Positions 7,511 through 37,039 of a stretch of 64,000 bases of DNA are shown piece after piece. Source of the stretch: Alphaproteobacteria bacterium (GTDB lineage: Bacteria > Pseudomonadota > Alphaproteobacteria > VGEJ01); NCBI GenBank assembly GCA_965219135.1, contig CBDCMV010000003.1, positions 2,176,616 to 2,240,615 on the forward strand, written 5' to 3'. The position numbers and the translations under genes were made by a program. The notes under the pieces are model-generated. The model was not told the DNA's origin, did no database searches, and worked only from the letters and a program-made list of their open reading frames with translations. Each line of letters starts with the position of its first letter. Position 1 is the stretch's first letter.

Positions 7511-8449
7511 TCAGGGGAAGCCCGGTGCGGCGGGCGGCGGGGTTGCCGCGCTGGCCTCGCGCAAAATCCATTCGCGGAACGCCCGGAGCTCGGGCCGCTG
7601 CCGCGAGGCCGCGGTGGTGATCAGGCAGCAGCGCTCGGGTGCCTCCTCCTGGCGGTCGAAGAGCGGAACCAGCGTCCGGTTCTCCAGCTCCTTCGCTATC
7701 AGCATCGGGCGCCCGATGACGGCCCCGAGCCCGCTCGCCGCCGCCTGGACCAGCATCGAGTAAAGGCGGAAGCCCGAGGCCCTTGAGAGGTCCGGCGTGG
7801 GGACGCCCTGGCGGGCGAACCAGTAGGACCAGTCGGCGTCCCAGCCGAGGTCGTAGAGCAGCGGCCAGTGGCGCAGCTCGGCCGGGCTCCGGGGCCGCCC
7901 ACGCGCGGCCAGCAGCGCCGGGCTGCACACCGGCAGCAGTGCCTCCTCGTAGAGCGTCTCCTCGAGCAGCGTCTCCTCGCGCCGGGTCAGCGGGCGGGGC
8001 GCCGAGGTCTCGCCCGAATAGGCGAGCCAGGCGTCGAAGTCGCGCCGCGACGGGTCGACGCTCCGATGATTGGTCTCGAGCTCGATGGCGATGCCGGGAT
8101 GGGCCGCCTTGAACGAGGCGAGCCTCGGCAGCAGCCACTTCTCGGCCACCGCCTCGACCGAGACGATGCGCACCCGGCGCGGCGTGGAGCGCTGCTGCTC
8201 GGAGGCGCCGTGCACCTCGGCCAGGATGCGCTGCACCTCCTTGAGATAGGCACGGCCGCGGCGGTTGAGGTGGACGCTGCGGCGCCTCCGCTCGAAGAGC
8301 ACGGCGCCGAGATGCCCTTCCAGGGAGCGGATGCGGTGGCCGACGGCGGCGGCGGTGACGCCGAGCTCCTTGCCGGCCAGCGCGAAGCTCTGGTGCCGGG
8401 CGGCGGCCTCGAAGAAGCGCAGGCTGTCGAGCGGGGGAAGGTGGAGCAC
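7511..8449 (-). CDS. LysR-family transcriptional regulator
   Basis: N-terminal HTH 'LDSLRFFEAAARHQSFALAGKELGVTAAAVGHRIRSLE' plus a C-terminal substrate-binding domain. Confidence 0.8.
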   Translation of the reverse strand: MLHLPPLDSLRFFEAAARHQSFALAGKELGVTAAAVGHRIRSLEGHLGAVLFERRRRSVHLNRRGRAYLKEVQRILAEVHGASEQQRSTPRRVRIVSVEAVAEKWLLPRLASFKAAHPGIAIELETNHRSVDPSRRDFDAWLAYSGETSAPRPLTRREETLLEETLYEEALLPVCSPALLAARGRPRSPAELRHWPLLYDLGWDADWSYWFARQGVPTPDLSRASGFRLYSMLVQAAASGLGAVIGRPMLIAKELENRTLVPLFDRQEEAPERCCLITTAASRQRPELRAFREWILREASAATPPPAAPGFP

Positions 8450-8555: not shown

Positions 8556-8921
8556 CTAGCGGCCGCGGAAGCGCCGGCGGTCGCCGTGGCGTTCGGTGGT
8601 CTCGTGGATGTCGAGGAGGATCCGCCGGACCTCCTCGTAATAGGCGCGACCGCGGCGGTTGATGTACACGCCGCGGCGCCTTCGCTCGAAGAGCTCGGCG
8701 CCGAGATGGGCCTCCAGCATGCGGATACGGTGGGCGACGGCAGGCGGGGTGACGCCGAGCTCGTCGGCGGCATGGGCGAAGCTCCGGTGCCGGGCGGCGG
8801 CCTCGAAGAAGCGCAGGCAGTCGAGGGGCGGCAGGGGTTTCACGGATACGGGCGCGAGGAACGGAGGGGTCGGGCAGAGATAAACAGATACTTCGTAATT
8901 GCACAAATATGACTTTCTCAT
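8556..8921 (-). pseudogene. LysR N-terminal HTH fragment (tandem partial duplicate of the 7511-8449 5' end)
   Basis: 'LDCLRFFEAAARHRSFAHAADELGVTPPAVAHRIRMLEAHLGAELFERRRRGVYINRRGRAY' parallels the N-terminus of the intact LysR. There is no effector domain. Confidence 0.5.
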
Positions 8922-9208
8922 GATGCCTTCTCAAAGGGAGGCTCCGAACCGCTGTTTTCATATTGCAGGGCTGTGTCATGGGGACCGTTTGGCTAAATCT
9001 GACAGGCACATTGATAAAATAAGAGTATCTCATACACTGAAAACTTTCGTGTTTACAATCACTTGAAATCCCGTTATGATTCGTCTTTTGTCAGCGGCGG
9101 TGTCAGGGTCGCCGCTGGCTTTATCTTGGGGGATGCGAATTCGGGAGAGGCGCGATGACGGGGTCGGGTCTTGCGAGGTGGTTGGATGGTATCGGCTCTA
9201 TAATTAGA

Positions 9209-9260
9209 AGCGCCGAGCGCCGAGCGCCGAGCGCCGAGCGCCGAGCGCCGAGCGCCGAGC
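9209..9260. repeat. Heptanucleotide tandem repeat (AGCGCCG/CGCCGAG) x 7.4 in the intergenic region upstream of the autotransporter
   Basis: Seven perfect CGCCGAG units at 9211-9259. A 7-nt unit shifts frame by one per unit. Confidence 0.9.
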
Positions 9261-9405
9261 GCCGAGGCCACGACTGCGCCTCGGCCGCGGGAGCAACGCC
9301 GCCCGCCATCGCCGCCTGACCGGCTGCCGCCCCGCCGGGGCGGCCATTCCTCTCGACACACTGTAACCGCCGCCGGCCGGCCGGCCGGCTTCGCGCGCCT
9401 CGCCG

Positions 9406-12400
9406 GTGCGCGGCGCGCGCTCTTCCGTGCCGCCCGCGCGGCAGCCGTTGTCGCGTGCCTCAGTCTTGCCGGCGCCTTCGTCCTGCCGGCGGTGCAGGCG
9501 CATACCACGGGACAACGGGCCCCACGGCTCGGAACACACCCACTTCTACCTCTGGCACACCACCATGACGGTGGGGGAGTCCAACGATTTTCTTGGATAC
9601 TCCAAGGACGAAGGCTGGGGAGAACTCAGCACCGGCCGGGAGTTCAACTACCCACCCTGGTCCCCGCCCCACAAACATCACTTCGACCCCGACTACGAAT
9701 TCTCCGTGGGAGCGCTCTATATCGACCCTTCACTCGCGGAAGATACCCTTGTTCTCGAGATAGATGATGCCGACGGGGCCAATAATATCGACGTCGGCAA
9801 CCTCACGCTCTGGATCCGCAACACGAGCATTCCGTTGTCAGATATCGGTGGTATTAGGCGCTCCTACGGCTTTGATGTTCCCTCCGGACCCGACCTCGAC
9901 TGGAAAGAGGGCGACACGGTCAGGGTGGTGCTGTCCTACGACCGCCTGCTGCCGTCTGAGCCGAGGAACGTGAGTGTGACGGCGCCGCCGGGTGAGGGCG
10001 GGACGCTGGCGGTGAGCTGGGACGAGCCGGACGACGAGGGCACCTTCCCGATCGAGTGCTACCTCGTCGAATTCCGCCACCCGAGCGGCGATATCAAGAA
10101 ACGAAAGCAGTCCTATCCCGGCTCTCGCGGCCCCGGAAAGGGATGCGGCGACAGCCCCCCGACCAGCGTGAAGCGCACGGACCTCGAACCGGGCGTCAGA
10201 TACGAGGTCCTGGTGCAGGCGTTGAGCGGCGACGGCTTCAGCGAGTGGTCGGACATGAAGACGGCCCCCCGCACCAACCGGGGAAGGGCGTTGGGGGCGC
10301 GCTTCGTCTCGCCGCCGGAGCGCCACGACGGCGAGAAGCGGATCAAGGTCCGGGTGGAGTTCAGCGAGGCGCCTGAGAACGTGGGCGCGGACGGCGTGGA
10401 GGTCGAGGGCGGCGCGGTGACGTCGGTGAGCCCGGTGGGCGGCGATGCGCCGGACGGCGCGGAGACCCGCTCGATCGGCAACCGCGATGCCGGCCGGCAG
10501 GACCGGGAGGTGGTGTGGGAGATCGAGATAGAGCCGGACTCGGACGGCGACGTGACGGTGAGCCTGGACGCGGGACGCCCATGCGACGAGGAAGGGGCGA
10601 TCTGCACCGCGGACGGGCGGACGCTGTCGGAGGGGATCTCGACCACGGTCGAGGGTCCGGAGGAGGGTCCGCCGCCGCTGACGGCGAGTTTCACGGGTCT
10701 CCCGGAGACGCATGACGGGGAGAGCGCGTTCACGTTCAGGATCGCGTTCAGCGAGCGGGTCGGCTGGATGAACGGCCGGCGGTTGCGCGAGAACGTGGTG
10801 GCGGTGGCCGGGGGCCGGGCGACGTCGGCCGGCCGGGTGAACCGGCGCCGGGACCTGTGGCAGGTGACGGTCGAGCCGGACTCGCCGGCGGACGTGACGG
10901 TGACGCTCAGCGCCGGGGCGGCCTGCCGCACCCCGGCGGCGGTGTGCACGTCGGACGGCCGCGCGCTGTCGAACAGCATCTCGGGGACGGTGCGGACGGT
11001 GCGGGGTCCTGTGGCGCTCTCGGTGGCGGACGCGCGGGCCGAGGAAGGCATCGACGAGACCATCGACTTCGCGGTGACGCTGAGCCGGGCGGCATCCGGC
11101 ACGGTGGCGGTGGCCTATGCGACCGCCGACGGGACGGCGACCGCGGGCGAGGACTACACGGCGCGGAAGGGCCAGCTGACCTTCGATCCGGGCGAGACGG
11201 AGAAGACGGTGCGTGTGCCGGTGCTGGACGACGCGATCGACGAGGGCGAGGAGACCTTCACGCTGCGGCTCACGAACGCCTCGGGGGCGGCGATCGCCGA
11301 CGGCGAGGCGACAGGCACGATCGAGAACTCCGATCCGCTCCAGAAGATGTGGCTCTCGCGCTTCGGGCGCACGGTGGCGGACCATGTGGTGGACGCGGTG
11401 GCCGGACGGCTGTCCGCTCCGCTCGCGGGTGCGCAGGTAACGCTGGCCGGGCAGAGCGTCGATCTCTCTCGGACCGGCGATAGCGCGGTTCTCGTGGACG
11501 CGATGACCGGCCTCGCCCGGGCCTTTGGGGCGCCGGCCGGTCCCGCGCCGACCGACCGGACCGCGCTGGACGCAGGGCCGGACCGGCAAGGCGGCGCCTG
11601 GGATAGCCCGGCTGCTGGCGGCAGCTCGCCTGCCCGCTCCGTGACGGGCCGCGATCTGCTGCTCGGGAGCTCGTTCCACCTGGCCTTGGACGGCGAGGGC
11701 GACGGCGGCGGTCCGGGCCTTACGGCCTGGGGCCGGGTGACGGTGGGCGGTTTCGACGGCCAGGGTGAAGCCGAGACGGGCGCCATGCGCATGGACGGAG
11801 AGGTCATCACCGGCATCCTCGGCGCGGATGCGCAACGGGGCCGCTGGCTCGCGGGTCTCGCGTTCTCGGTGAGCGAGGGCGAGGGCACCTTCGAGCAGCC
11901 GGAGGCGGGCAACCGCGGGACGGTCGAGAGCAACCTGACGAGCGTGAACCCCTATCTGCGTTTCGAGGCGAGCGAGCGGCTCTCTACCTGGGGGCTTCTC
12001 GGCTTCGGCACAGGCGAGATGACGATGACCGAGGCGGCCCGGGGCGAGCGCGGCGAGACCGTGAGCCGGACCGACATCGAGATGCGCCTCGCCGCCGTTG
12101 GCGCGCGTGGCGCGCTGCTTGATCCGGGAACCTCGGGCGGCTTCGACCTCGCGGTCAAGGCGGACGCGTTCCTGGTCGAGACGGAATGGGAGAAGGTCTC
12201 GAACGAGACGGATACGCAGGCTGGCGCAAGCCGGGTGCGGCTGGTCCTCGAAGGCTCGCGGGCGTTCGAGCTGGGCGGGAGCGCAAAGCTGACGCCAGGG
12301 CTGGAGCTCGGGCTTCGCCATGACGGCGGTGACGCGGAGACTGGGACCGGCGTCGAGGTCGGCGGCAGCGTTGGCTACGCCGACGCGGCATCGGGCCTCT

Positions 12401-12852
12401 CCGTCGAGGCGCGCGCGCGGACGCTCATCGCGCACGAGGCCTCGGGCTTCGAGGAGTGGGGGGCGAGCGCCTCGGTGCGCCTCGACCACGGCGCCGAGGG
12501 CCGCGGGCTCTCGTTCAGCCTCGCTCCCACCCTGGGGGCGTCGTCGAGCGGGGTGGACCGGCTGTGGTCGCTCCAGGACGCGCGCGGCCTCGCGCCGGAG
12601 GGCGAGTTCGAGGCAGCGCGGAGCCTGGAGGCGCATGTCGGCTACGGGCTCGGCGCCTTCGGCGACCGCGGTCTCGCGAAGCCCTATGCGGGCCTTTCGC
12701 TTGGCGAGGGCGGGGCGCGCACCTGGCGCGGGGGCGTGCGCTGGACGCTCGGGCGGAGCCTCGACCTCGGTTTCGAGGGCAGGCGCAACGAGGCCGCCAA
12801 CGACAACGATCCGGAACACGGCATCGGTTTCAGGTTGAAGACTCGGTGGTAG
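9406..12852 (+). CDS. Autotransporter outer-membrane protein. The passenger has an FN3 domain, internal repeats and a Calx-beta domain; the C-terminus is a beta-barrel translocator. The N-terminus is out of frame with its signal peptide.
   Basis: FN3: 'PRNVSVTAPPGEGGTLAVSWDEPDDEGTFPIECYLVEFRH...YEVLVQALSGDGFSEWS'. Calx-beta: 'VAYATADGTATAGEDYTARKGQLTFDPGETEKTVRVPVLDDAIDEGEETFTLRL'. The C-terminal ~300 aa are Gly-rich alternating beta and end '...GIGFRLKTRW'. The in-frame N-terminus lacks a signal peptide. Confidence 0.7.
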   Translation: MRGARSSVPPARQPLSRASVLPAPSSCRRCRRIPRDNGPHGSEHTHFYLWHTTMTVGESNDFLGYSKDEGWGELSTGREFNYPPWSPPHKHHFDPDYEFSVGALYIDPSLAEDTLVLEIDDADGANNIDVGNLTLWIRNTSIPLSDIGGIRRSYGFDVPSGPDLDWKEGDTVRVVLSYDRLLPSEPRNVSVTAPPGEGGTLAVSWDEPDDEGTFPIECYLVEFRHPSGDIKKRKQSYPGSRGPGKGCGDSPPTSVKRTDLEPGVRYEVLVQALSGDGFSEWSDMKTAPRTNRGRALGARFVSPPERHDGEKRIKVRVEFSEAPENVGADGVEVEGGAVTSVSPVGGDAPDGAETRSIGNRDAGRQDREVVWEIEIEPDSDGDVTVSLDAGRPCDEEGAICTADGRTLSEGISTTVEGPEEGPPPLTASFTGLPETHDGESAFTFRIAFSERVGWMNGRRLRENVVAVAGGRATSAGRVNRRRDLWQVTVEPDSPADVTVTLSAGAACRTPAAVCTSDGRALSNSISGTVRTVRGPVALSVADARAEEGIDETIDFAVTLSRAASGTVAVAYATADGTATAGEDYTARKGQLTFDPGETEKTVRVPVLDDAIDEGEETFTLRLTNASGAAIADGEATGTIENSDPLQKMWLSRFGRTVADHVVDAVAGRLSAPLAGAQVTLAGQSVDLSRTGDSAVLVDAMTGLARAFGAPAGPAPTDRTALDAGPDRQGGAWDSPAAGGSSPARSVTGRDLLLGSSFHLALDGEGDGGGPGLTAWGRVTVGGFDGQGEAETGAMRMDGEVITGILGADAQRGRWLAGLAFSVSEGEGTFEQPEAGNRGTVESNLTSVNPYLRFEASERLSTWGLLGFGTGEMTMTEAARGERGETVSRTDIEMRLAAVGARGALLDPGTSGGFDLAVKADAFLVETEWEKVSNETDTQAGASRVRLVLEGSRAFELGGSAKLTPGLELGLRHDGGDAETGTGVEVGGSVGYADAASGLSVEARARTLIAHEASGFEEWGASASVRLDHGAEGRGLSFSLAPTLGASSSGVDRLWSLQDARGLAPEGEFEAARSLEAHVGYGLGAFGDRGLAKPYAGLSLGEGGARTWRGGVRWTLGRSLDLGFEGRRNEAANDNDPEHGIGFRLKTRW

Positions 12853-13121
12853 GCGCTCGGGTCCGGGGACGGTAGCGGGGCGCCGGTGCGCATGACAGCG
12901 CCGGCGCGTCGGAGGGACCCGGGGAGGATGCCGCCGTGTCCACCCCACCATGCGCGGGCCGGGCCTCGAACTTCAATCCGATCGATCCCGCATTGGGCGG
13001 GGCAACGCCATGGCGCCGGGGCATGGGGGACACACCAGGACGGCCCCCGCCCGCCGCCGGGGCGATATCCGGCATGGGCGGCCCGGCCGGCCCTGTCGAC
13101 CGCCGGCGAAGGGAGCCGGCG

Positions 13122-13700
13122 ATGAGCGGCAGGAGGGCGACCGCCCGTCCGGTCAGCGCCTGGCGGTTCTTGAGACGCAACCCCGAATATGTCGAGGCGT
13201 GGCGCGCCGTGGCGGCCAGGCTGCCCAGCCAGCCGGGCCGGAACTTCCGGGTGCGCGCGCAGACGGACGAGGATCTCGAGGCCGCCGCGTGGGGTCTGCT
13301 TGCCTGGGAGGACCCGCTGGACGAGGAAGGGCCGGCCTCGCCGTTCTGGGCGGAGGCGCCGATGCTCAATGCTGAAGCCGCGCCGCGGGGCGTGCCGCCG
13401 CTGGCGAAGATGATCGAGGAGGCGGGCGCCCGCCTCGCCGGGCTGCGCCTGGCGGACGGCGCCCTGGTCCTGAAGATCGAGCGGGGCGACGCCGCGGCGC
13501 AGGTGCGGGTCGCCCATGCCGAGGCCTTCGATCCCGCGGCCGGCCTGGTTCTGCGGCTGGCCTTTGGCCTCGAACTGCCGGTGGCGCTGGCCCGCGTGCG
13601 CGATCTGTGGGCGATCGTGGACGCGGGCGGGAGGAAGGGCGGCGGTCCGTCCCCCGGGCCAGGGAGGGCGAGCTCCTGCTCGCCCTCGACGGGAAGCTAG
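13122..13700 (+). CDS. FseA-like ICE transfer activator, N-terminal part (DUF6499-like 'WRFLRRNPEY' region)
   Basis: ATG at 13122 with AAGGGAG RBS. 'MSGRRATARPVSAWRFLRRNPEYVEAWRA...'. The frame degenerates into low complexity after 'DLWAIVDAGGRK'. A downstream ORF in another frame continues protein-like sequence. Confidence 0.5.
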   Translation: MSGRRATARPVSAWRFLRRNPEYVEAWRAVAARLPSQPGRNFRVRAQTDEDLEAAAWGLLAWEDPLDEEGPASPFWAEAPMLNAEAAPRGVPPLAKMIEEAGARLAGLRLADGALVLKIERGDAAAQVRVAHAEAFDPAAGLVLRLAFGLELPVALARVRDLWAIVDAGGRKGGGPSPGPGRASSCSPSTGS

Positions 13701-13861
13701 CCGGCAAGACCCACCGCCTGATTGCCATCGATCTCTACGGCGCGTCCCGGGTGGCGGAGGAGTGGGCCGCCGGCGGCCCGGTGCGTTCCCTGGTGGGCCG
13801 CCGCATCAAGCGGTCCATGCACGTCATGGACGGCGGCTACCGCAAGCTCGTGACCGGTTGA
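13607..13861 (+). CDS. FseA-like activator, C-terminal part (DUF2285-like), in the -1 frame relative to 13122-13700
   Basis: Protein-like from about 13660: 'GELLLALDGKLAGKTHRLIAIDLYGASRVAEEWAAGGPVRSLVGRRIKRSMHVMDGGYRKLVTG'. Its frame is open from 13376. Confidence 0.45.
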   Translation: MGDRGRGREEGRRSVPRAREGELLLALDGKLAGKTHRLIAIDLYGASRVAEEWAAGGPVRSLVGRRIKRSMHVMDGGYRKLVTG

Positions 13862-13996
13862 CGGAAGGCGCCGATCCCTCGCACGGGGAGCGTCGCACCC
13901 GGACGGGGGGTCGTTTCTGGGAATCTCAGAATCGACTCTGCCGGCAACAGCCCCGGCCTGCTTCACTGGCCTCCCGCCCCCTGCCGGGAGACCGTC

Positions 13997-14293
13997 ATGA
14001 CCGACCCCGCGCCCCGTTATTTGGACACGAGTCAGGCCGCCCGCTATCTCGGCATCAGTCCCAAGACGCTCATGCGGATGCGGGTCCCGGAGTTGGGCGA
14101 TATCGGCCTTCTTGAACTTTTCGAATTCCGGGGCCGTTTCGGCCTCGGCATCGAGCGTGACCTCCATTTCCGGCCCAAGCACCGGATTTCCACATACGCC
14201 GAGGCCGCGAGCGCCGCCGGCCGCATCGTCGAATTCGGACCCGAACTCGACGCCGCCGCCCGCATACGAACCGAGGCCGAAGCCCCCGCCTGA
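13997..14293 (+). CDS. Excisionase-like / MerR-AlpA-type helix-turn-helix DNA-binding protein
   Basis: 'YLDTSQAARYLGISPKTLMRMR' HTH. GGGAGA RBS. 98 aa. Confidence 0.55.
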   Translation: MTDPAPRYLDTSQAARYLGISPKTLMRMRVPELGDIGLLELFEFRGRFGLGIERDLHFRPKHRISTYAEAASAAGRIVEFGPELDAAARIRTEAEAPA

Positions 14294-14306
14294 TCGCCCT
14301 CCGGCA

Positions 14307-14349
14307 ACGCCCCGTCCCGGCTTCTCCGGGGCGGGACGTTCTTTAGGCT
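14307..14349 (+). terminator. Rho-independent terminator candidate after the HTH gene
   Basis: GC-rich imperfect hairpin CCCCGTCCCGG-cttctc-CGGGGCGGGACG followed by TTCTTT. Confidence 0.45.
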
Positions 14350-14523
14350 ACCCCGCCGAAGCTGCTGTTATGGCTGCTGCATGTAACCCCGCCCACCATC
14401 GCCGTCCACCGTAAGGAGGACGGGCCGCGGCTTCCGGGCTGGCCGGACGGAGCGGTGCGGGAGTGACAGCCCCGCGCCGCTCCGGTCCCGCCGTTCACGC
14501 ATCCCTATCATTGGAGCCTGCAC

Positions 14524-17500
14524 ATGCTCGACGCCCATCCGGCGCCGGCCGCGCCCGTGCGCGCGCCCGCCGCCTCCGTCCCCACGGCCACTACCGCATA
14601 TCTCTGCGGCCCGCAACACGAGCCCCGTTCCAAGCCCGCCGCGCTATTGGCCACCGCCCGTACCCTGCTGCCGGTCCTGGAGGCCGGCCGCGCGCTCGAT
14701 GTCCACGCGTTGCGCGAGGCCATGAGCGATGCCTTCGGGGCCACCGACGCCCAGGGCGCCTGGGTCTGGAAGGACGCCTACGAGGCGGCCGAAGCCGCGC
14801 TCGTGCTCTTCCTCCAACGTTACGGCCGCGCCATGCGCCGCGAGGCCGGCCCGGATACCGGCGGCCCCGCCGCCATGCTTGGCATGCTGGAGACTATCGC
14901 TGCCCTGGAGCCCTCTCAGACGCGGCGTTCCGAGGAGCAGATCGCGCTACAGCAGTTCTCGACGCCGCTGCCGCTCGCCTACGCCGCCCTCCAAGCCGCA
15001 GCCATCCGTCCCGGCGATGTCGTGCTCGAACCCTCCGCCGGCACCGGCATGCTCGCGGTGATGGCCGCGTGCGCGCTCGGCAATGGTTCCGCCGGCTCCC
15101 TCCACCTGAACGAGATCGCCGCCACCCGCGCCGGGCTCTTGTCCGGCCTGTTCCCCGGCGCGGCCGTCACTCGCCACAACGCCGAATCCTTGCGCGACCG
15201 CCTGCCGGCGCTCCGTCCCAGCGTGGTCCTGATGAACCCGCCGTTCTCGGCAAGCCCCGGCGTTGACCGCGCCAGCAAGGACGCCGACCTGCGCCATATT
15301 CGCTCGGCCTTCTCGATGCTTCCGCCGGGCGGGCGGCTGGTGACCATCTCGTCCGCCCACTGCGCACCCGGCGACGCCGCCTGGAAGGATGCTTTCGCAT
15401 CCCACGATTTGGCGGCCCGCGTGGTGTTCTCCGCCGCGATCGACGGGCGTGTCTACGCGCGCCGCGGCACCACCTTCGACACCAGACTCACCGTGCTCGA
15501 CAGAGGCGGGGACGAACGGGGCCCGATCGATCCGCTCGCCCGCATCGCGGACACCGCCCAACTGCTCAAGGCCGTCGCCGCCGCGGTGCCCGCCCGTCTG
15601 CCCGTCGAGCCGGTGCAGGCCGTTCCGGTTCGTGCCGCCGATCTGTTCGGCAATGCACCGGCACCCCGCCGGGTATCCGCCAAGCGTGCCGGGACGGCCC
15701 CCTCCGCGCCGCAGCCCCATGACTGGGGCCCCATCGCCGAGCTCGAATACGAAGCCGGCCGGCCCGCTGGGGACTCCGCCGATAACGCGCACGCCTCCGG
15801 CCCATACGAGCCCTGGCGAGCGGGCACCATCGGTTTCCCCGGCGCGGTCGAGCATCCCACCCCGCTGGTGCAGTCCGGCGCCATGGCGGCGGTGCCGCAC
15901 CCGGCGCCTTCGTACCATCCCATGCTTCCCACGCGGATCCTGACCGACGGGCTCCTGTCCGATGCCCAGCTCGAGAGCGTCGTCCTCGCCGGACAGGCAC
16001 ACGAACGCCACCTCGCCGCGCTCTACCGCATCGGCGCCGGATGGGAGACCGTGCACCGCGTCGACGGCGAGAACGATGACGGCAATGACGCCAACAACGA
16101 TCATGACGCCGTTCATGCGCATCCCGACAACGGCGGCGATAGCGCAGGCGACAACGAGCCGCTGTCGAACCCGGTGCGCTTCCGGCACGGCTGGATGCTG
16201 GGCGACGGCACCGGCTGCGGCAAGGGCAGGCAGGTCGCTGCCATCGTCCTCGACCAGTTGCTACGGGGGCGAAAACGGGCGCTCTGGCTCAGCCAGTCCG
16301 ACAAGCTGCTTGAGGACACGCGCCGGGACTGGACCGCAATCGGCGGCCGCGATGATGATGTGATCCCGTTGGCCAAGGTCCGCCAGGGGGCCGCCATCCC
16401 CCAGGCGCAAGGCATCCTCTTTGCCACCTATGCCACGCTGCGCTCGCCGGCCCGGCAGGGGAAGCAATCGCGCCTCGACCAGATCGTCGCCTGGCTCGCC
16501 GGGAGTGCCGACGAAAACGACCCCCACGCCTTCTCGGGCGTCATCGTCTTCGACGAGGCGCATGCCATGGCCAACGCCGCCGGGTCCAAGGGCTCACGCG
16601 GCGACGCCGCGCCCTCGCAGCAGGGACGCGCCGGTCTGCGCCTGCAGAACGCACTCCCCGACGCCCGCGTCCTCTACGTCTCCGCTACCGGCGCCACCAC
16701 CGTCCCCGGCCTTGCCTACGCAAGGCGCCTCGGCCTCTGGGCTTCCGGCGAGACCCCGTTCGAGGAACGCGCGGCGTTCGTCGCGGCCATGGAGGCCGGC
16801 GGTGTCGCGGCAATGGAAGTGGTTGCCCGCGACCTCAAGGCCCTCGGCCTCTATCAAGCCCGCGCGCTATCCTACGACGGGGTGGACGTCGACATCCTGG
16901 AGCACCCGCTCAGCCACGAGCAGCGCCGCATCTACGACGCCTATGCCGGAGCGTTCAAGATCATCCATGCCAACATCCAGGAGGCGTTGAAGGCCACCGG
17001 CATCGTGGAGGGGGGCAACACCCTCAATCGCAATGCCAAGTCCGCCGCGCTCAGCGCATTCGAGGGCGCCAAGCAGCGCTTCTTCGGCCATCTGTTGACC
17101 AGCATGAAGTGCCCTTCGCTGATCGCCGCCATGGAAGCGGACCTGGAAGCGGAGCGGTCGCCCGTTGTGCAGCTCGTCTCGACCGGCGAAGCGCTGATGG
17201 AGCGCAGGATCGCCGAGATTCCAGCCTCGGAATGGGACGATCTCAGCATCGACCTGACCCCGCGGGAGTATGTACTGGATTTTCTCGCCCACGCCTTTCC
17301 GGTGCAGTTGCAGGAGCCCTTCACCGACGACGACGGCAACGTCATGTCGCGGCCCGTGTTCGACGACGATGGCAACCCGGTGCTCTGCCAGGAAGCCGTG
17401 GCCAAGCGCGACGCGCTCATTCAGAAGCTCGGTTCCCTACCGCCGGTACAGTCTGCGCTCGACCAGATCGTCCACCGCTTCGGACACGATGCCGTCGCCG

Positions 17501-18744
17501 AGGTCACCGGGCGCTCGCGCCGGGTGCTCAAGATTACGGACGCCAGGGGCGAGCGCCTGGCGCTGCGCTCCCGTCCCGCCTCAGCCAACCTCGCCGAGAC
17601 CGCCGCCTTCATGGATGGCAGCAAACGCATCCTGGTGTTCTCGATGGCCGGCGGCACCGGGCGCAGCTACCACGCCGACCTCGGTTGCGCCAACACCGCG
17701 CGCCGCGTCCACTATCTGCTGGAACCGGGCTGGCGGGCCGACCAGGCAATCCAGGGCCTTGGCCGGACCCACCGCACACACCAGGCCTCGGCGCCGCTGT
17801 TCCGCCCGGTCGCTACCGACGTGAAGGGCGAGCGCCGCTTCATCGCCACCATCGCCAGAAGGCTCGATTCCCTCGGCGCCATCACGCGCGGCCAGCGCGA
17901 CTCACAGACCGCCATGGGCGGCGATGACACCGCGTTGTTCCGGGCCAGCGACAATCTCGAGAGCCTCTACGCCAAGTCGGCGCTGCGGCAGTTCTACATC
18001 GCGCTCTGGCGCGGCCACATCGAAGGCTGGTCGCTCGACCGCTTCGAGGAGGCCACCGGACTGAAGCTCACTTGGGAGGGCAGTCTCAAGGAGGACCTGC
18101 CGCCGATGCCGAAGTTTCTCAACCGGCTGCTTGCGCTTCCAATTGCCGAGCAGAACGCGCTGTTCGCCGCGCTTGAGGCCCGCATCGAGGCCAATATCGA
18201 ACACGCCGTCGAGGCCGGCACCTTCGAGCGGGGTGTCGAGACCATCGCCGCCGACTCGCTCTCCGCCGGCGCGCGCGAGACGGTGTTCGTCCACGAGGCC
18301 TCCGGCGCCGAGACCGAGCTCCTCGAAGTCCTGCGACGCGACAGGCTCGAGCCGCTTACCGCCGACGCGGCGCTCAAGCTTCATCCCGAGGCCTCCGACC
18401 GCAAGCCCCGGCTCATGGTGAACGGCCAGTCGAAGCGCGCCGCCCTGGTGCGGCCCGCATCGTCCCGCATGTTCGACGACGGCGGGGTGCAGGAGCGCGT
18501 CCGCCTGATCCGCCCCGCTGCCCGGGACACCATGGCCCGGGACGCGCTCGACGCCTCCCAATGGCGGGATGCCGATGAGGACCGCTGGCGCGCCTTCTGG
18601 GAGGCCGAGGTCGCGGAGCTGCCGTCGCACACGGAGTCCCGCTTCTGGCTGGTCGCCGGCCTGCTGCTACCGATCTGGGACCGCCTGCCCGACGAGAGCA
18701 TGCGGGTGCGCCGCCTCGTGACGGACAATGGCGAACGACGCTGA
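14524..18744 (+). CDS. Fused N6-adenine methyltransferase / SNF2-like (strawberry-notch type) helicase of the kind found in ICEs and plasmids
   Basis: N-terminal MTase motifs 'VVLEPSAGTGMLAVMAA' and 'VVLMNPPFSASPG'. Helicase Walker A 'GDGTGCGKGRQVAAIV', DExH 'IVFDEAHAMAN' and a C-terminal helicase domain. 1406 aa. Confidence 0.8.
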   Translation: MLDAHPAPAAPVRAPAASVPTATTAYLCGPQHEPRSKPAALLATARTLLPVLEAGRALDVHALREAMSDAFGATDAQGAWVWKDAYEAAEAALVLFLQRYGRAMRREAGPDTGGPAAMLGMLETIAALEPSQTRRSEEQIALQQFSTPLPLAYAALQAAAIRPGDVVLEPSAGTGMLAVMAACALGNGSAGSLHLNEIAATRAGLLSGLFPGAAVTRHNAESLRDRLPALRPSVVLMNPPFSASPGVDRASKDADLRHIRSAFSMLPPGGRLVTISSAHCAPGDAAWKDAFASHDLAARVVFSAAIDGRVYARRGTTFDTRLTVLDRGGDERGPIDPLARIADTAQLLKAVAAAVPARLPVEPVQAVPVRAADLFGNAPAPRRVSAKRAGTAPSAPQPHDWGPIAELEYEAGRPAGDSADNAHASGPYEPWRAGTIGFPGAVEHPTPLVQSGAMAAVPHPAPSYHPMLPTRILTDGLLSDAQLESVVLAGQAHERHLAALYRIGAGWETVHRVDGENDDGNDANNDHDAVHAHPDNGGDSAGDNEPLSNPVRFRHGWMLGDGTGCGKGRQVAAIVLDQLLRGRKRALWLSQSDKLLEDTRRDWTAIGGRDDDVIPLAKVRQGAAIPQAQGILFATYATLRSPARQGKQSRLDQIVAWLAGSADENDPHAFSGVIVFDEAHAMANAAGSKGSRGDAAPSQQGRAGLRLQNALPDARVLYVSATGATTVPGLAYARRLGLWASGETPFEERAAFVAAMEAGGVAAMEVVARDLKALGLYQARALSYDGVDVDILEHPLSHEQRRIYDAYAGAFKIIHANIQEALKATGIVEGGNTLNRNAKSAALSAFEGAKQRFFGHLLTSMKCPSLIAAMEADLEAERSPVVQLVSTGEALMERRIAEIPASEWDDLSIDLTPREYVLDFLAHAFPVQLQEPFTDDDGNVMSRPVFDDDGNPVLCQEAVAKRDALIQKLGSLPPVQSALDQIVHRFGHDAVAEVTGRSRRVLKITDARGERLALRSRPASANLAETAAFMDGSKRILVFSMAGGTGRSYHADLGCANTARRVHYLLEPGWRADQAIQGLGRTHRTHQASAPLFRPVATDVKGERRFIATIARRLDSLGAITRGQRDSQTAMGGDDTALFRASDNLESLYAKSALRQFYIALWRGHIEGWSLDRFEEATGLKLTWEGSLKEDLPPMPKFLNRLLALPIAEQNALFAALEARIEANIEHAVEAGTFERGVETIAADSLSAGARETVFVHEASGAETELLEVLRRDRLEPLTADAALKLHPEASDRKPRLMVNGQSKRAALVRPASSRMFDDGGVQERVRLIRPAARDTMARDALDASQWRDADEDRWRAFWEAEVAELPSHTESRFWLVAGLLLPIWDRLPDESMRVRRLVTDNGERR

Positions 18745-20200: not shown

Positions 20201-21700
20201 TCAGCCGTCCGCCCCGAGGCCTGGCGCGTAACCGAGGACTTCGCGGATCGTGTGCGAGGGCAACACCGCGCGGCCCATCTGGAACAGCATAAGGTCGAAG
20301 GCGGCCCCGAAATCCTCCGCGAGGTGGGCCTTGACCAGCGCGGTACGGATGGCGCGGAGGTCGTCGCCGAGCCCGATGCCGACGCCGGCCTCCTTGCGCG
20401 CTTCGGCTTCCGCGTCGGGACGCGCGGGCGGCACGGCCGGAGCGGAGATGGCGGGGGCCTGGATGCCGGGGATACCGGCTTCATCGCCGCCGTCATCGAG
20501 CTGCCCTGCGGCATTCGCATCGCCGGGCTCTTGTGCCGGCATGTCCTCGGGCCTGACCAGGCCCTGGACGACTTGTAGCTCACCGTCCCTGCCGACGGTG
20601 GCGATGCATCCGGCGATCGCAAAATCCTCATGCCGGAACGTGGCCCGCGCTTCGACCGCGGCGTCGATCTCCTCGAGCCGGGTTTCGATGGCGTCGGCTT
20701 CGATTGCGAGCTCCTCGGTCCACGCGTCGTCGTCCATCTCGGCAAGCTCGTCGTGACGGGTCCGCAGGCGCTCGCTCTCCGCCTTCTCCTCGCCGGTGGG
20801 TTGAGCCGGTTGGGGATGGATCCGGCCGAATCGGGCGAGGTCGGTCCAGTCGACCTCAAGGCGCGCCTCGGCCCACTTCCAGCGGGTCGCGACCTCGTCC
20901 GCCGCTGCCTGGAGGCTCTCGGTGGCGAGCTTGTCCAGGAGATCGGGATCTTCGAGCCAGACGCCCCGCTCGTCCTCATCCGCGAACAGGTCGCGGTCGA
21001 CCCGTCCGCCGGCCGCCTCGTAAGTCTCGACGCCGACGAAGTGCGCGGTGATGGAGGTGGCGGGCACCCTGTCCTCGGTGAGCATGCGTTTGATCTGCCA
21101 GCCGCTTGGCCGGTAGCTCTGTTCCTTGACCCGCTCCCACACCGCCATCTGGCGCTCGCGGTCGGCGGTGACGGCGAAGGCCTTGAGGGTATCGAGGTCG
21201 ATCTCGTCGGCGCGGTAGGCGTCGAGGAGTTCGGGCGCGGCGTTGCCGAGGCGCAGGCGCTGTTCGACGGTACGCTCCGCCACCCCGAAGCGGGCGGCGA
21301 TGTCGGCGACGGTGGCGCCGGCATCGGCCAGCGCCCCGAAAGCCTGCACCTGGTCGGCCGGGTGCATGGCAACGCGGACCATGTTCTCGGCGAGGGAGAG
21401 CTCGTTGTCGGCCGCGCCGTTGCCGATGACGCGGCAAGGGACAGGGAAGTCGAGGGCCAACACGCCCTCGCGCGCGAGGTCGATGAGCGCCTTTAGCCGC
21501 CGGCCGCCGGCGATGACGGCGTAGCTGCCGTCCGCATTAGAGTCGCATGAGCGAACCACCAGGTTCTCAAGCAGCCCGTGCGAAGCGATGGAAGCCTTGA
21601 GCTCGGTGAAGGCGGTCTTGGCGGCCACGGTCTTGCGGACGTTGGCGGGCGAGAGTTCCAGCCGGTCGAGCGGGATGGATCGGATGACGGGGTCGGTCAT
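20201..21700 (-). CDS. ParB-like nuclease domain protein (ICE-type, not a partition ParB)
   Basis: Start 'MTDPVIRSIPLDRLELSPANVRKT...GLLENLVVR...YAVIAGGRRLKAL' with GGAGA RBS. The track ORF extends further 5' through low-complexity sequence. Confidence 0.75.
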   Translation of the reverse strand: MTDPVIRSIPLDRLELSPANVRKTVAAKTAFTELKASIASHGLLENLVVRSCDSNADGSYAVIAGGRRLKALIDLAREGVLALDFPVPCRVIGNGAADNELSLAENMVRVAMHPADQVQAFGALADAGATVADIAARFGVAERTVEQRLRLGNAAPELLDAYRADEIDLDTLKAFAVTADRERQMAVWERVKEQSYRPSGWQIKRMLTEDRVPATSITAHFVGVETYEAAGGRVDRDLFADEDERGVWLEDPDLLDKLATESLQAAADEVATRWKWAEARLEVDWTDLARFGRIHPQPAQPTGEEKAESERLRTRHDELAEMDDDAWTEELAIEADAIETRLEEIDAAVEARATFRHEDFAIAGCIATVGRDGELQVVQGLVRPEDMPAQEPGDANAAGQLDDGGDEAGIPGIQAPAISAPAVPPARPDAEAEARKEAGVGIGLGDDLRAIRTALVKAHLAEDFGAAFDLMLFQMGRAVLPSHTIREVLGYAPGLGADG

Positions 21701-21965
21701 GTGCGGAGTTCTCCAGAGATGGGACGGCCGCGCGGTGCGGCCGGTCGATGAACGGACGCGTGATCGTGATCGAACACGCGTCCATGGAAGGGAAAGCCGG
21801 GAGCGCCCTCTCGGACGCCCGGGACTCGATCTCAACGGGGCCAGGCTCTGTCTCTTGGTGCCGCACGGCCAGGGAGCCGGTGTCTGGAATAAGTCCGAGC
21901 AGTGACAATCGAGGGAGTCGGGTTCGGCACTCTTGCCGGACGTTGCCGCTGCAGTGGCAGCCCGG

Positions 21966-31100: not shown

Positions 31101-31489
31101 CACTGGGTCTTCATCCACGTCACCACCTTCAACAGCTTCAACGCCGCCGTATCCCTCTCCGGGTTCAGTCGGTTCGAGCGGCGAGAGATCTGAATCGCCT
31201 GCTGGCCTCGGAACGATGCCGTCCCGAACCCGCTGCCCAGGCCCGCTCCCTCCGATCGCGCCAGCTCCGGGTTCGTGAAATGCGGATACACGTCGGCGTA
31301 TGGGTATTGGAACGTGATGTGGAAGCCGAACCACGCTTCGGCCTGTGCGTAGGGGTATCCCAGCGGGACGCGCCTGACCACCACGACCGCTCCGGCCGAG
31401 CCGTCCGGCTCCACCTCCACGTCACACCCCTCGAACGTGCAGCGGATCTCCTCGATGGCCTGCGCCACTGCCGGGGTGAGGTTGCTCAT
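31100..31489 (-). CDS. E2/UBC-fold protein lacking the catalytic Cys (UEV-like), system A
   Basis: 'VVVVRRVPLGYPYAQAEAWFGFHITFQYPYADVYPHF' parallels UBC '[20 protein letters not shown]'. The following HPN-Cys position is 'TNPE...GSGFG', with no Cys. Stop and start overlaps (ATGA) with both neighbours. Confidence 0.5.
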   Translation of the reverse strand: MSNLTPAVAQAIEEIRCTFEGCDVEVEPDGSAGAVVVVRRVPLGYPYAQAEAWFGFHITFQYPYADVYPHFTNPELARSEGAGLGSGFGTASFRGQQAIQISRRSNRLNPERDTAALKLLKVVTWMKTQ

Positions 31490-34860: not shown

Positions 34861-34861
34861 T

Positions 34862-35010
34862 CGGTTCTTCTCGTGTCGGTGATGTGGCTACGGGCTGTCG
34901 AGGGGGGTCGGCCCGGACCGCTGGGATTTGATCGGCGCCTGCGTGGTGTTGATCGGCGCCGGCATCATCCTCTTCGCGCCGCACGGTGCCTGAACGGTAT
35001 CCTCGCAGCA
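34862..35010 (+). pseudogene. EamA/DMT-family transporter C-terminal fragment
   Basis: '...GYGLSRGVGPDRWDLIGACVVLIGAGIILFAPHGA*' terminal TM helix only. It begins exactly at the low-GC insertion junction. Confidence 0.45.
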
Positions 35011-35216
35011 CCCGCGATTCGTTCGGGCGACGGGCCGGTGCCGTTCGGCGCTCGACCGGCGTGCCGAGCGACAGGAAATGATTTCGGCCGTTTCCTTTGG
35101 CTCCGGGGGCATCGCTGGGGCCCGCTTTCTCGGACAAATCCATGACGGAAGGCTCGAATCTCAACCTTCGGCGAACAGTTCCGGGGGCCTAACAATTCGA
35201 AAACCACTGCTCCTGG

Positions 35217-36659: not shown

Positions 36660-37039
36660 TGGCTTTCCCAAAGCGCACGTACGTGCTCCATGTATCGCAA
36701 GGTGTTCTTCGCACCAGACGACCAGTTCGGATGTGGCCGGCTCCAATACTGCCAATCAGACCCGAAGTGCTTGCTATGGCCGGTGCTGGAGTGGATATGT
36801 CCAGTAGGATGCGTTCCATCGGGTTGGTTCTGGTGAATCAGCTTGTGAATATGCGGACCGGACGGCGGCGAAAGCGGGAAGTCGGGCGGGGCAACGATAC
36901 CGATATCGACCTCCAGGCCCTCGTACTTCCCCACTTCGACCCGGTAAGACGGAATCATGATGTGGTGGTCGGGAAGTTCAACGACATCAGTTCCCGCATG
37001 CCGCAACTGATCGGCGAAGAGCGGCGCGCCAACTAGCAC
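36656..37039 (-). CDS. E2/UBC-fold protein without any cysteine (UEV-like), system B
   Basis: 'YRVEVGKYEGLEVDIGIVAPPDFPLSPPSGPHIHKL' UBC-core-like. The protein has zero Cys. GTG start overlaps the Ubl stop by 7 nt. Confidence 0.45.
   Translation of the reverse strand: MLVGAPLFADQLRHAGTDVVELPDHHIMIPSYRVEVGKYEGLEVDIGIVAPPDFPLSPPSGPHIHKLIHQNQPDGTHPTGHIHSSTGHSKHFGSDWQYWSRPHPNWSSGAKNTLRYMEHVRALWESQ

What the first reader, a model, noticed from the sequence alone, without database searches (positions are those of the whole stretch)
9155..9600. Autotransporter N-terminus: signal peptide encoded in a different frame, upstream heptanucleotide repeat, and an RBS-equipped ATG that reads through the repeat
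The FN3/Calx-beta autotransporter frame (codon phase 1, open from the TAA at 9364) has no signal peptide. A textbook Sec signal peptide 'RRALFRAARAAAVVACLSLAGAFVLPAVQA|HTTGQ' is encoded at 9411-9500 in phase 3 (open from 9204). This requires a frame change near 9500-9520.

An ATG at 9155 with a GGAGAGG RBS reads through the (CGCCGAG)7 tract in phase 2 and stops at 9317. Gain or loss of one 7-nt unit would move that reading frame into phase 1 or 3. The arrangement looks like slipped-strand phase variation of a surface protein, or a pseudogenised version of one. The present repeat number does not yield a clean ORF, so it may be phase OFF.
Basis: seen in the sequence. Interest (0 to 1): 0.6.

Follow-up and report, generated by a model that had tools for sequence, protein, structure and literature searches.

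The report
Repeat-switched surface protein gene, currently off
The start of this large outer-membrane surface-protein gene carries a run of eight perfect 7-base repeats that sets the reading frame, which is the layout of a stochastic on/off switch; this copy sits in the off frame and also has a one-base insertion, and the same start cassette occurs in uncultured bacteria assigned to several phyla.

Summary
The tract is (AGCGCCG)x8, not 7, at 9209-9266. ATG 9155, with RBS GGGAGAGG, reads through it in phase 2 and stops at 9317. A conserved Sec signal peptide lies in phase 3 (9411-9500). The FN3/Calx-beta body is in phase 1.

Three homologous loci place the phase 3-to-1 break at one extra G in GGG 9507-9509. 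In most relatives the conserved leader (MTAPRPREQ...) starts with ATG directly after the repeat. Here, and in two relatives, that codon is ACG (9270), so only the upstream ATG can start translation.

Related loci carry 2-20 heptamer units by DNA count, and about 31 inferred from one gene call. A near-identical allele has 20 units against 8 here. Other family members carry (AGCCG)n or (AG)n at the same position, so the unit length is never a multiple of 3. In-frame and out-of-frame states both occur.

Best reading: a slipped-strand translational phase-variation switch, caught OFF. Losing one unit restores the frame. A second lesion, the extra G, is either a real mutation or a consensus error.

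The "autotransporter" label is only partly supported. The C-terminus is a predicted beta-barrel closest to BrkA, but it has no Pfam hit and about 18 strands. Verdict: new variant of a known kind.

The parts
9052..9080 (+). Sigma-70-like promoter TTTACA-17 nt-TATGAT inside the AT-rich gap (GC 43-50%)
   Evidence: 10 of 12 consensus matches; 3 sites found against 0.2 expected. The TTGCAA/TTTACA...TATGAT(TCG) arrangement recurs at the same distance in L002, L066, L005, L007 and L008. Function is inferred.
9090..9119 (+). GC-rich hairpin at the start of the predicted 5' UTR, followed by TTTATCTT
   Evidence: One search reports a 12-pair stem. One search finds the stem kept in 6 loci, with 3 pairs showing changes on both sides. 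Its role (mRNA stability or attenuation) is unknown.
9143..9150 (+). Shine-Dalgarno-like GGGAGAGG, 4 nt before ATG 9155
   Evidence: A GGGAG motif lies in the equivalent position in relatives.
9155..9319 (+). Upstream start codon and its present reading frame (phase 2, 54 codons, TGA 9317-9319). This is the N-terminal exon-like part of the gene when the repeat number is permissive.
   Evidence: The N-terminal peptide motif xxxCA(R/K)WLExV is conserved in relatives with AGG/CGG/AAG codon changes. It is fused in frame to the leader in L005, L007, L009, P0128, P0132, P0153 and others.
9209..9266 (+). Simple sequence repeat (AGCGCCG)x8, stop-free in all frames; the proposed slipped-strand switch
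   Evidence: Related loci have 2-20 units by DNA count and about 3-31 inferred from gene calls.
9270..9272 (+). ACG at the position of the family's conserved ATG (MTAPRPREQ...); the canonical internal start is missing in this allele
   Evidence: alignment. The codon is ATG in L001 and L003-L009, ACG in the window, L002 and L065, CTG in L067 and GTA in L069. L068/L070 have TTA at the equivalent position.
9270..9410 (+). Pro/Arg-rich pre-signal leader (TTAPRPREQRRPPSPPDRLPPRRGGHSS...AGFARLAGA), phase 3
   Evidence: It is shared by dozens of family members with unrelated passengers. It has no Pfam hit, so it is not ESPR.
9372..9389 (+). Short (GCCG)x4.5 tract inside the leader
   Evidence: The leader of some relatives (P0038, P0041) shows a compensated frame excursion around this region.
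9411..9500 (+). Sec-type signal peptide RRALFRAARAAAVVACLSLAGAFVLPAVQA, with predicted cleavage after VQA; phase 3
   Evidence: It is conserved and in frame with the passenger in P0007, P0023, P0028, P0031 and P0044. The cleavage site is inferred by inspection.
9507..9509 (+). GGG run holding one extra G relative to homologues; it shifts phase 3 to phase 1
   Evidence: records (9509, G, -) against L002. The same GG is seen in L001 and L065.
9511..12852 (+). Passenger and C-terminal membrane domain in phase 1. Components: N-terminal domain DNGPHGSEHTHFYLW...; fn3 at about 9955-10254; Calx-beta at about 11017-11322; helix plus beta-barrel at 11332-12849, ending ...FRLKTRW
   Evidence: The public database annotates only the part from ATG 9565 (P0001, 1095 aa).

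Best explanation
This is the 5' end of a contingency (phase-variable) surface-protein gene.

**Proposed layout.** Transcription starts from the promoter at 9052-9080. Ribosomes load at GGGAGAGG and ATG 9155 and must read through the (AGCGCCG)n tract to reach three parts in turn: a conserved Pro/Arg-rich leader, a Sec signal peptide, and then the FN3/Calx-beta passenger with its C-terminal outer-membrane beta-barrel.

**How the switch would work.** The unit is 7 nt, so each gain or loss of a unit by slipped-strand mispairing moves the downstream gene through the three frames. This allele has ACG where the family normally has a second ATG just after the repeat. The upstream ATG is therefore its only start, and the switch is strictly ON/OFF.

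**State of this copy.** With 8 units the ribosome ends at TGA 9317, which is OFF. Seven or 10 units would be ON.

**Second lesion.** One extra G at 9507-9509 separates the signal peptide from the passenger. As sequenced, the gene would stay broken even after a switch. This is either a recent inactivating mutation in a silenced copy or a consensus error.

**Shown:** the anatomy, the frame arithmetic, the tract-length polymorphism, the frame states among relatives, and the position of the extra G.

**Inferred:** that slippage occurs at a useful rate, that the upstream ATG is used, and that a signal peptide 113 residues from the N-terminus still works.
For: 1. **Anatomy.** The layout is as described.
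2. **Repair test.** Removing one unit and one G yields a single uninterrupted 1229-codon ORF from ATG 9155.
3. **Hypervariable tract.** The window and L002 differ at only 9 positions across about 8835-11280, namely 5 upstream of the tract, the G indel and 3 substitutions. Yet they carry 8 and 20 units. L007 and L009 carry 6 and 3 units. P0132 and P0156 carry about 15 and about 3.
4. **Different repeats, same position.** Other members carry (AGCCG)x18 in L068, (AGCCG)x29+15 in L070 and (AG)x16 in L069. Units of 7, 5 and 2 nt are all non-multiples of 3, and all are stop-free.
5. **Members without a post-repeat ATG.** These are ACG x3, CTG, TTA x2 (L068 and L070), GTA, and one with the segment replaced. 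Except for the window itself, all still have intact 3-5 kb ORFs in the leader frame and an RBS plus start codon upstream of the repeat.
6. **ON and OFF states both occur.** L067 and L068 are in frame from their upstream ATG. L069 is in frame only from a TTG (1501); its upstream ATG (1505) is out of frame. The window, L002, L065, L066 and L070 are out of frame. Unfused upstream peptides ending RRGHDCAS...PAIAA* exist as separate gene calls (P0147, P0150, P0155, P0163).
7. **Upstream peptide conserved.** The motif CA(R/K)WLE is kept with AGG/CGG/AAG codon changes.
8. **Weak internal start.** The post-repeat codon has only a poorly spaced GAGG 2 nt upstream (read).
Against: - No reads, transcripts or proteins are available, so switching within a population is not shown.
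- Most family members do have an ATG right after the repeat, and gene callers start there. For them the repeat could be a 5' UTR or upstream-ORF element rather than coding sequence.
- The two DNA-level allele pairs differ by multiples of 3 units (12 and 3). That keeps the frame instead of switching it. The chance of this is about 1 in 9, so it is weak evidence, but it is not what a freely switching tract predicts.
- A signal peptide preceded by about 85 residues is unusual.
- The first 26 leader codons show no third-position bias in variation (8/9/9). Their conservation is therefore not obviously protein-level.
- This particular copy has a second lesion, so it may simply be dead.
Confidence: 0.7

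Rival explanations
1. The gene is a plain pseudogene of a family whose real start is the ATG just after the repeat. This copy lost that start (ATG to ACG) and then gained a frameshift. The repeat lies in the 5' UTR or in a small regulatory upstream ORF. Its length polymorphism is neutral, or only tunes translation of the main ORF by occluding the main start or by ATGA stop-start coupling.
For: - The post-repeat ATG is conserved in L001 and L003-L009 and in about 40 gene calls.
- With ATG present, an out-of-frame upstream ORF stops either at +47 or exactly at the ATGA overlap (L006). That layout is compatible with translational coupling.
- The window carries two lesions.
- Several relatives are frameshift-truncated (P0135, P0127, P0129).
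Against: - ACG is found in three independent assemblies. Two of them (L002, L065) keep intact ORFs of more than 3 kb.
- Other members with CTG, TTA or GTA at that codon are in frame from an upstream start through the repeat and were called as full-length proteins (P0113, P0061, P0118).
- Three different non-triplet repeat units at one position are hard to explain as neutral.
Confidence: 0.2
2. One or both frame problems are assembly or consensus artefacts. The extra G would be a homopolymer error. The 8-unit count would be a consensus drawn from a mixed or mis-polished repeat. The gene would then be intact in the organism.
For: - The related contigs carry metagenome-assembler style names with low coverage (2x-8x).
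- The G indel is one of only 4 differences from L002 in 2 kb.
- Database relatives often show truncating frameshifts.
Against: - Other long ORFs in the window are uninterrupted: 1406 aa at 14524-18744 and 1201 aa at 48791-52396, both with full-length domain hits. The assembly is therefore not riddled with indels.
- A GG-to-GGG run is short for a homopolymer error.
- A perfect 8-unit tract flanked by unique sequence lies well within a long read.
- L002 is out of frame in the same way in an independent assembly.
Confidence: 0.25
3. The frames are joined during expression rather than in the DNA. This would be programmed ribosomal frameshifting, transcriptional slippage on the repeat, or initiation at the non-canonical ACG.
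For: ACG sits exactly at the family start position. Repeats can promote polymerase slippage, which is general knowledge.
Against: - No slippery heptamer or stimulatory structure was identified.
- Rfam finds nothing in 8700-9700.
- Two separate frame changes would be needed, one at the repeat and one at 9509. Homologues are co-linear at 9509 without the extra G.
- Efficient ACG initiation is not established in bacteria.
Confidence: 0.03

Closest known systems
Neisseria opa genes (CTCTT pentamer repeats in the signal-peptide coding region of a multigene outer-membrane protein family); from established knowledge, not tested here
   Same: Both have a non-triplet SSR inside the 5' coding region, before or within the export signal of an outer-membrane surface protein. 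Both are multigene families with a conserved 5' end and variable exposed parts. In both, ON/OFF is set by repeat number modulo 3.
   Different: Here the repeat lies upstream of a long Pro/Arg-rich leader, not inside the hydrophobic core. The unit is a GC-rich heptamer, or a 5-mer or 2-mer in paralogous members. Most members also have a second in-frame ATG after the repeat. The hosts are uncultured bacteria with 60-70% GC assigned to several phyla. The proteins are 1000-2000 aa, with FN3, Calx-beta, cadherin or LRR passengers and a C-terminal barrel.
Phase-variable autotransporters: Lav (GCAA(n), PMC9022572) and NalP/MspA (homopolymeric tracts in the coding sequence, PMC3723659)
   Same: A large secreted or surface protein with a C-terminal membrane barrel is switched by an intragenic SSR near the 5' end.
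   Different: No sequence similarity was found. The C-terminal domain here has no PF03797 hit, and the model has about 18 strands rather than 12. The repeat type differs, and there is a conserved mobile leader cassette.
H. influenzae hmw1A/hmw2A 7-bp repeats (heptanucleotide SSR upstream of adhesin genes); from established knowledge; heptanucleotide repeats in H. influenzae are covered in PMC2651432
   Same: A heptanucleotide SSR is associated with a large adhesin, and copy number varies between strains.
   Different: As I recall it, the HMW repeats lie between promoter and start codon and grade transcription. Here the tract is downstream of an RBS plus ATG, is stop-free, and is read in frame into the protein in many alleles.
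Extended signal peptide region (ESPR) of autotransporters and two-partner-secretion (TPS) proteins
   Same: A conserved N-terminal extension precedes an otherwise ordinary Sec signal peptide on very large surface proteins.
   Different: There is no Pfam ESPR hit. The sequence is unrelated (MTAPRPREQRRPPSPPDR...). The extension is longer, about 45 residues before the signal n-region. It is conserved at the DNA level even at synonymous sites.

Membership tests
SSR-driven translational phase-variable (contingency) locus | Perfect tandem repeat whose unit length is not a multiple of 3 | tested here: met
   (AGCGCCG)x8 at 100% identity. Paralogous members carry 5-nt and 2-nt units.
SSR-driven translational phase-variable (contingency) locus | Repeat lies within the translated region, between the start codon and the functional domains, and is stop-free in all frames | tested here: met
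   RBS plus ATG 9155 lie upstream and the tract has no stops in any frame. In-frame read-through into the leader is seen in L005, L007, L009, L067 and L068. Whether ATG 9155 is used in vivo was not tested.
SSR-driven translational phase-variable (contingency) locus | Tract length is polymorphic between closely related alleles while the flanks are conserved | tested here: met
   8 versus 20 units, with 9 other differences in about 2.4 kb. 6 versus 3 units in L007/L009.
SSR-driven translational phase-variable (contingency) locus | Different alleles occupy ON and OFF frames | tested here: met
   Frame offsets 0, 1 and 2 are all observed among 15 SSR-bearing loci.
SSR-driven translational phase-variable (contingency) locus | Reversible, high-frequency switching within a clonal population, with matching protein ON/OFF | not testable with these tools
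   This needs reads, cultures or reporters.
Classical (type Va) autotransporter | N-terminal Sec signal peptide | tested here: met
   Present in phase 3 and in frame with the passenger in homologues. It is disconnected in this copy.
Classical (type Va) autotransporter | C-terminal autotransporter beta-domain (Pfam PF03797, 12-stranded barrel) | tested here: inconclusive
   - No Pfam hit even at E<=10.
- No PDB sequence hit.
- The AF2 model has pLDDT 59.7 and shows about 18 long strands.
- The best Foldseek match is the BrkA beta-domain (E 1.2e-5, TM 0.60 on the target). TonB-dependent receptors and LptD score similarly.
- One relative (P0100) has a precomputed PF03797 hit.
Classical (type Va) autotransporter | Alpha-helical linker preceding the barrel, and a C-terminal aromatic residue | tested here: inconclusive
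   The model predicts a helix at residues 2-28 of the C-terminal fragment. The protein ends in ...FRLKTRW. Whether the helix sits in the pore cannot be judged.
ESPR-type extended signal peptide | Match to the conserved ESPR motif or Pfam model | tested here: not met
   No ESPR hit on the repaired N-terminus or on a family leader.

The most novel reading that the evidence does not exclude
The window shows one copy of a horizontally mobile 'contingency cassette'. The cassette consists of a promoter, a 5' hairpin, an RBS and short N-terminal ORF, an interchangeable non-triplet SSR (7-, 5- or 2-nt units), a Pro/Arg-rich leader and a Sec signal. It is nearly identical at the DNA level in chromosome-scale MAGs labelled Nitrospirales, Binatia, Alpha- and Gammaproteobacteria, and it sits in front of many different adhesin-like passengers. 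On this reading, whole communities of uncultured bacteria share a plug-in module for stochastic switching of surface proteins. In members that keep the second ATG, the module may give a three-state output: fusion, occlusion, or ATGA coupling.
Probability: 0.35. Interest if true: 0.8.

Novelty: new variant of a known kind. Interest (0 to 1): 0.6.

Why it matters
SSR phase variation is textbook biology for a few host-adapted pathogens with small, AT-rich genomes. Here the same logic appears in GC-rich, uncultured bacteria. It takes the form of a conserved start cassette shared across MAGs assigned to at least four major lineages, placed before very different surface-protein passengers. Three different repeat types fill the same slot.

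If confirmed with reads, three things would follow:
- Stochastic surface switching would be shown to be a transferable module in environmental or host-associated communities.
- Annotators would have a rule for recovering the true N-termini of this family. Public gene calls currently truncate them, as in P0001, which starts 53 codons inside the passenger.
- Repeat length in long-read metagenomes could be used to read the ON/OFF state of surface proteins in situ.

For this particular gene the practical message is that it is not expressed as sequenced.

Tried and rejected
- **JGI metagenome scan.** Scanning with the 20-nt leader pattern gave 55 hits. All were chance matches and none had the leader context.
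- **Own contig.** Looking up the window's own annotated protein (P0001) to name the source contig returned nothing on record. The cluster look-up gave no names or accessions. The organism of the window remains unknown.
- **Sponge-symbiont origin.** I guessed this from the domain types and MAG names and could not support it. The only papers holding 'Rarilocul' concern mangrove and compost. I dropped the claim.
- **GC3 test for indel errors.** A GC3-per-ORF screen of the window was not discriminating, because antisense frames score equally high. I abandoned it.
- **Sequence-level autotransporter test.** Pfam and PDB sequence searches of the C-terminal 506 aa and of the N-terminal passenger domain found nothing.
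- **Known RNA elements.** Rfam found none in 8700-9700.
- **Plasmids.** The 5' region has no similarity to the plasmid collection.
- **Literature.** Searches found no description of this cassette.
- **Promoter-spacer SSR.** Rejected, because the promoter-like hexamers lie upstream of the tract, and the tract follows an RBS plus ATG.
- **Gain of one unit as a rescue.** Rejected. It would put ATG 9155 into phase 1, but phase 1 has TAA at 9364 and would skip the signal peptide.
Full report
**1. What is in the sequence**

The region lies after a divergently oriented LysR gene (7511-8449, minus strand) and an AT-rich gap (GC 43-50% at 8900-9200). In order, it contains the following.

- A sigma-70-like promoter, TTTACA-17-TATGAT, at 9052-9080.
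- A GC-rich hairpin at 9090-9119.
- GGGAGAGG at 9143-9150.
- ATG 9155.
- A perfect (AGCGCCG) array at 9209-9266. TRF gives 8.3 copies at 100% match. A regex count gives 8 full units.

The ATG frame (phase 2) reads MTGSGLARWLDGIGSIIRS(AERRAPS)n... and stops at TGA 9317.

Phase 3 is open from 9204. It encodes a Pro/Arg-rich stretch followed by GARRALFRAARAAAVVACLSLAGAFVLPAVQA|HTTGQ. It has no ATG/GTG/TTG before 9492.

Phase 1 is open from 9367. It carries the 1148-codon body, with fn3 (E 1.6e-10) and Calx-beta (E 7e-23), and has no signal peptide.

**2. Where the frames should join**

The protein search found an identical public gene call, P0001. It starts only at ATG 9565 (MTVGE...), which avoids the problem region.

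The homologue P0007 (74% identity) begins MTAPRPREQAGPPSPP...GARRALFRAARAAAVVACLCLAGAFALPAVQADTTDNGPHGSEHTHFYLW. There the signal peptide is in frame with the passenger.

At the DNA level, L001, L002 and L065 read accacGGacaacggg where the window reads accacGGGacaacggg. The alignment with L002 places a 1-nt insertion at 9509.

**3. The start of the family and the ACG**

Dozens of hits with very different passengers (cadherin-like, LRR, SRCR, FN3 and Calx-beta combinations) share the leader M(T/S)APRPREQRRPPSPPDRxPPRRGG...ARRGLVRSARALAAAALLALSGALALPAQAQ.

The first codon of that leader sits 3 nt after the repeat, or directly after it in L004, L007 and L009. It is:
- ATG in L001 and L003-L009;
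- ACG in the window (9270), L002 and L065;
- CTG in L067;
- GTA in L069;
- TTA in L068 and L070;
- absent in L066, where the segment is replaced.

The alleles without ATG have no other start codon in the leader frame downstream of the repeat. Except for the window, they still keep intact 3-5 kb ORFs. All have an RBS plus start codon upstream of the repeat.

**4. The repeat behaves as a hypermutable, frame-setting tract**

- *Length polymorphism.* The window and L002 are nearly identical from about 8835 to 11280. They differ at 5 sites upstream of the tract, the G indel and 3 substitutions, but carry 8 and 20 units. L007 and L009 carry 6 and 3 units. Gene calls P0132 and P0156, which look like the same gene, carry about 15 and about 3. 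Across the family the count runs from 2 units (DNA loci) to about 31 (inferred from gene calls).
- *Frame states.* Among alleles lacking the post-repeat ATG, L067 and L068 are in frame from the upstream ATG. L069 is in frame only from a TTG at 1501; its ATG at 1505 is out of frame. The window, L002, L065, L066 and L070 are out of frame. Among ATG-type alleles, both in-frame (L005, L007, L009) and out-of-frame (L004, L008) states occur. In L001 the upstream ORF stops before the tract, and L006 has only a degenerate repeat of about 2 units. Unfused upstream peptides ending RRGHDCAS...PAIAA* are present in the protein database (P0147, P0150, P0155, P0163).
- *Different repeats in one slot.* The same position holds (AGCCG)x18 in L068, (AGCCG)x29+15 in L070 and (AG)x16 in L069. 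Units of 7, 5 and 2 nt are never multiples of three, and all are free of stop codons. This is the signature expected when selection favours frame switching rather than a particular peptide.
- *Upstream peptide.* The motif xxxCA(R/K)WLExV before the repeat is conserved with AGG/CGG/AAG codon changes. That is consistent with it being translated.

**5. State of this copy**

ATG 9155 is at offset 1 relative to the leader, so translation ends at 9317. That is OFF.

- Removing one unit, or adding two, restores the frame.
- Removing one unit and the extra G gives a single uninterrupted 1229-codon ORF, with 113 residues before the predicted VQA|H cleavage site.
- Fixing only the repeat gives a 201-residue product.

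No repeat number can compensate for the extra G, because the signal peptide and the passenger are in different phases. The copy is therefore either a silenced gene that has begun to decay or a correct gene with one consensus error. I cannot decide between these without reads. Other long ORFs in the window are uninterrupted. Several database relatives are frameshift-truncated.

**6. Caveats on mechanism**

- Most relatives keep the second ATG. For them the tract could act through an upstream ORF. When that ORF is out of frame it ends either 47 nt inside the main ORF or exactly at an ATGA overlap (L006). That could give occlusion or coupling rather than simple ON/OFF.
- The two DNA-level allele pairs differ by multiples of three units (12 and 3), which preserves the frame. 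With two pairs this is weak evidence (about 1 in 9 by chance), but it is noted.
- The first 26 leader codons vary equally at all three codon positions (8/9/9 variable columns). They are almost invariant across MAGs of different phyla. Their conservation therefore looks DNA-level or recent, although L069 shows synonymous changes in TAPRPR.
- The leader matches no Pfam family, including ESPR. Rfam finds nothing in 8700-9700.

**7. Is it an autotransporter?**

The C-terminal 506 residues have no Pfam or PDB sequence match.

An AlphaFold model built on 27 sequences has mean pLDDT 59.7, with 70-85 in the barrel core. It shows a helix followed by about 18 long antiparallel strands.

The best Foldseek match is the BrkA autotransporter beta-domain (E 1.2e-5, TM 0.60 normalised on the target). 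Hbp, EspP and NalP also match, but TonB-dependent receptors and LptD score similarly.

The protein ends in an aromatic residue (W). So it is an outer-membrane beta-barrel protein with an autotransporter-like layout. Membership of type Va is not established.

**8. Distribution and context**

The cassette is made of an AT-rich promoter, a hairpin, an RBS plus short ORF, the SSR and the leader. It was found in chromosome-scale MAG records titled Nitrospirales (where the heptamer is absent), Candidatus Rariloculus (Gammaproteobacteria), Candidatus Binatia, and four Alphaproteobacteria.

It was also found in several ENA assemblies. It was not found in the JGI metagenome set or in plasmids.

Several paralogues occur per genome, judged from recurring contig lengths.

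The gene is GC-richer (72-74%) than the rest of the window (57-68%). It sits at the edge of a mobile or defence island holding:
- a Strawberry-notch-like helicase and a ParB-like protein;
- DUF2201;
- two ThiF-family proteins;
- a Schlafen AlbA_2 protein;
- a PRTase-CE/AAA_22 protein;
- Mutator and IS110 transposases.

In L001 the gene is flanked by two tyrosine recombinases and TraL/TraE/TraK.

The window-L002 comparison is mosaic. The segment 8835-11280 is near-identical and its flanks are diverged, with the barrel about 75% identical from 11283. This points to recombination that moves the promoter-leader-passenger block between barrel backgrounds.

**9. Comparison with known systems and verdict**

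The logic matches known SSR contingency loci.
- Neisseria opa genes have CTCTT repeats in the signal-peptide coding region (established knowledge).
- Lav has GCAA(n) (PMC9022572).
- NalP and MspA have homopolymeric tracts in the coding sequence (PMC3723659).
- The heptanucleotide unit recalls the HMW adhesin repeats of H. influenzae, but as I recall those are promoter-proximal (see PMC2651432 for SSRs in that species).

What differs here:
- the GC-rich units;
- the placement of the repeat before a long conserved leader;
- the optional second start codon;
- the interchangeable repeat types;
- the cross-phylum distribution of the cassette.

I found no paper describing it.

The finding is a new variant of a known kind, and this particular copy is non-functional as sequenced.

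Noticed in passing
window 9090-9119 (and the equivalent positions in L005, L007, L008, L009, L066): There is a conserved hairpin right after the predicted -10 box. Three of its pairs keep pairing through changes on both sides. In most relatives the loop contains CCATGG. A second predicted stem overlaps the GGGAG ribosome-binding site. Its function is unknown; mRNA stability, attenuation or RBS masking are possibilities.
   Followed up: partly
window ~8835 and ~11283 (versus L002): The comparison is sharply mosaic. The promoter, leader and passenger block is about 99.7% identical to L002. The LysR side is 82-92% identical, and the C-terminal barrel from 11283 is only about 75% identical. This suggests recombination that swaps passenger blocks between barrel backgrounds.
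   Followed up: partly
window 9372-9389: A (GCCG)x4.5 micro-repeat sits inside the leader. Relatives P0038 and P0041 read part of the leader in another frame and then return to the original frame (RRGRPFLSIRCIRRRQ versus RRGGHSSPYAVTAAGRPAG). The middle of the leader therefore tolerates frame excursions.
   Followed up: no
window 10000-16000 versus the rest of the window: The surface-protein gene and its immediate neighbours are 72-74% GC, while most of the window is 57-68% GC. This is consistent with acquired DNA.
   Followed up: no
window 14524-18744, 20201-21835, 22352-23761, 29679-31334, 33115-36755, 48791-52396, 54250-55452, 58737-59927: The gene sits at the edge of an island of mobile and defence-type genes. 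These are a Strawberry-notch-like helicase (AAA_34 plus Helicase_C_4), a ParB-like protein, DUF2201 (metallopeptidase plus VWA), two ThiF-family proteins, a Schlafen AlbA_2 protein, a 1201-aa AAA_22/PRTase-CE protein, and Mutator and IS110 transposases.
   Followed up: partly
window 58348-58576: A 110-bp unit is repeated 2.1 times at 99% identity, next to the IS110-family transposase gene.
   Followed up: no
L066 1290-1312; P0152: One sub-lineage has replaced the MTAPRPREQRR segment with an unrelated AT-richer stretch (aatattgcttaggttccaccaga, read as EYCLGSTR). In it the repeat joins directly to PPSPPDR. An in-frame version exists as gene call P0152.
   Followed up: no
P0159 (Micromonospora sp. 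CA-263727 hypothetical protein): The same heptamer, read as (SAERRAP)n for about 24 units, occurs at the C-terminus of an unrelated actinomycete protein. AGCGCCG arrays therefore arise independently in GC-rich genomes.
   Followed up: no
L001 1-2593 and 7740-9546: In the closest ATG-type relative, the gene is flanked upstream by two tyrosine recombinase genes. Downstream lie an HTH_17 (excisionase-like) gene and TraL/TraE/TraK. That is an integrative conjugative element setting.
   Followed up: no
L006 1501-1699 (Binatia MAG): This copy has only a degenerate repeat of about 2 units, and its leader-frame ORF stops inside the signal-peptide region. It is probably a dead copy. Its upstream ORF ends exactly on the ATGA overlap with the leader ATG.
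   Followed up: no
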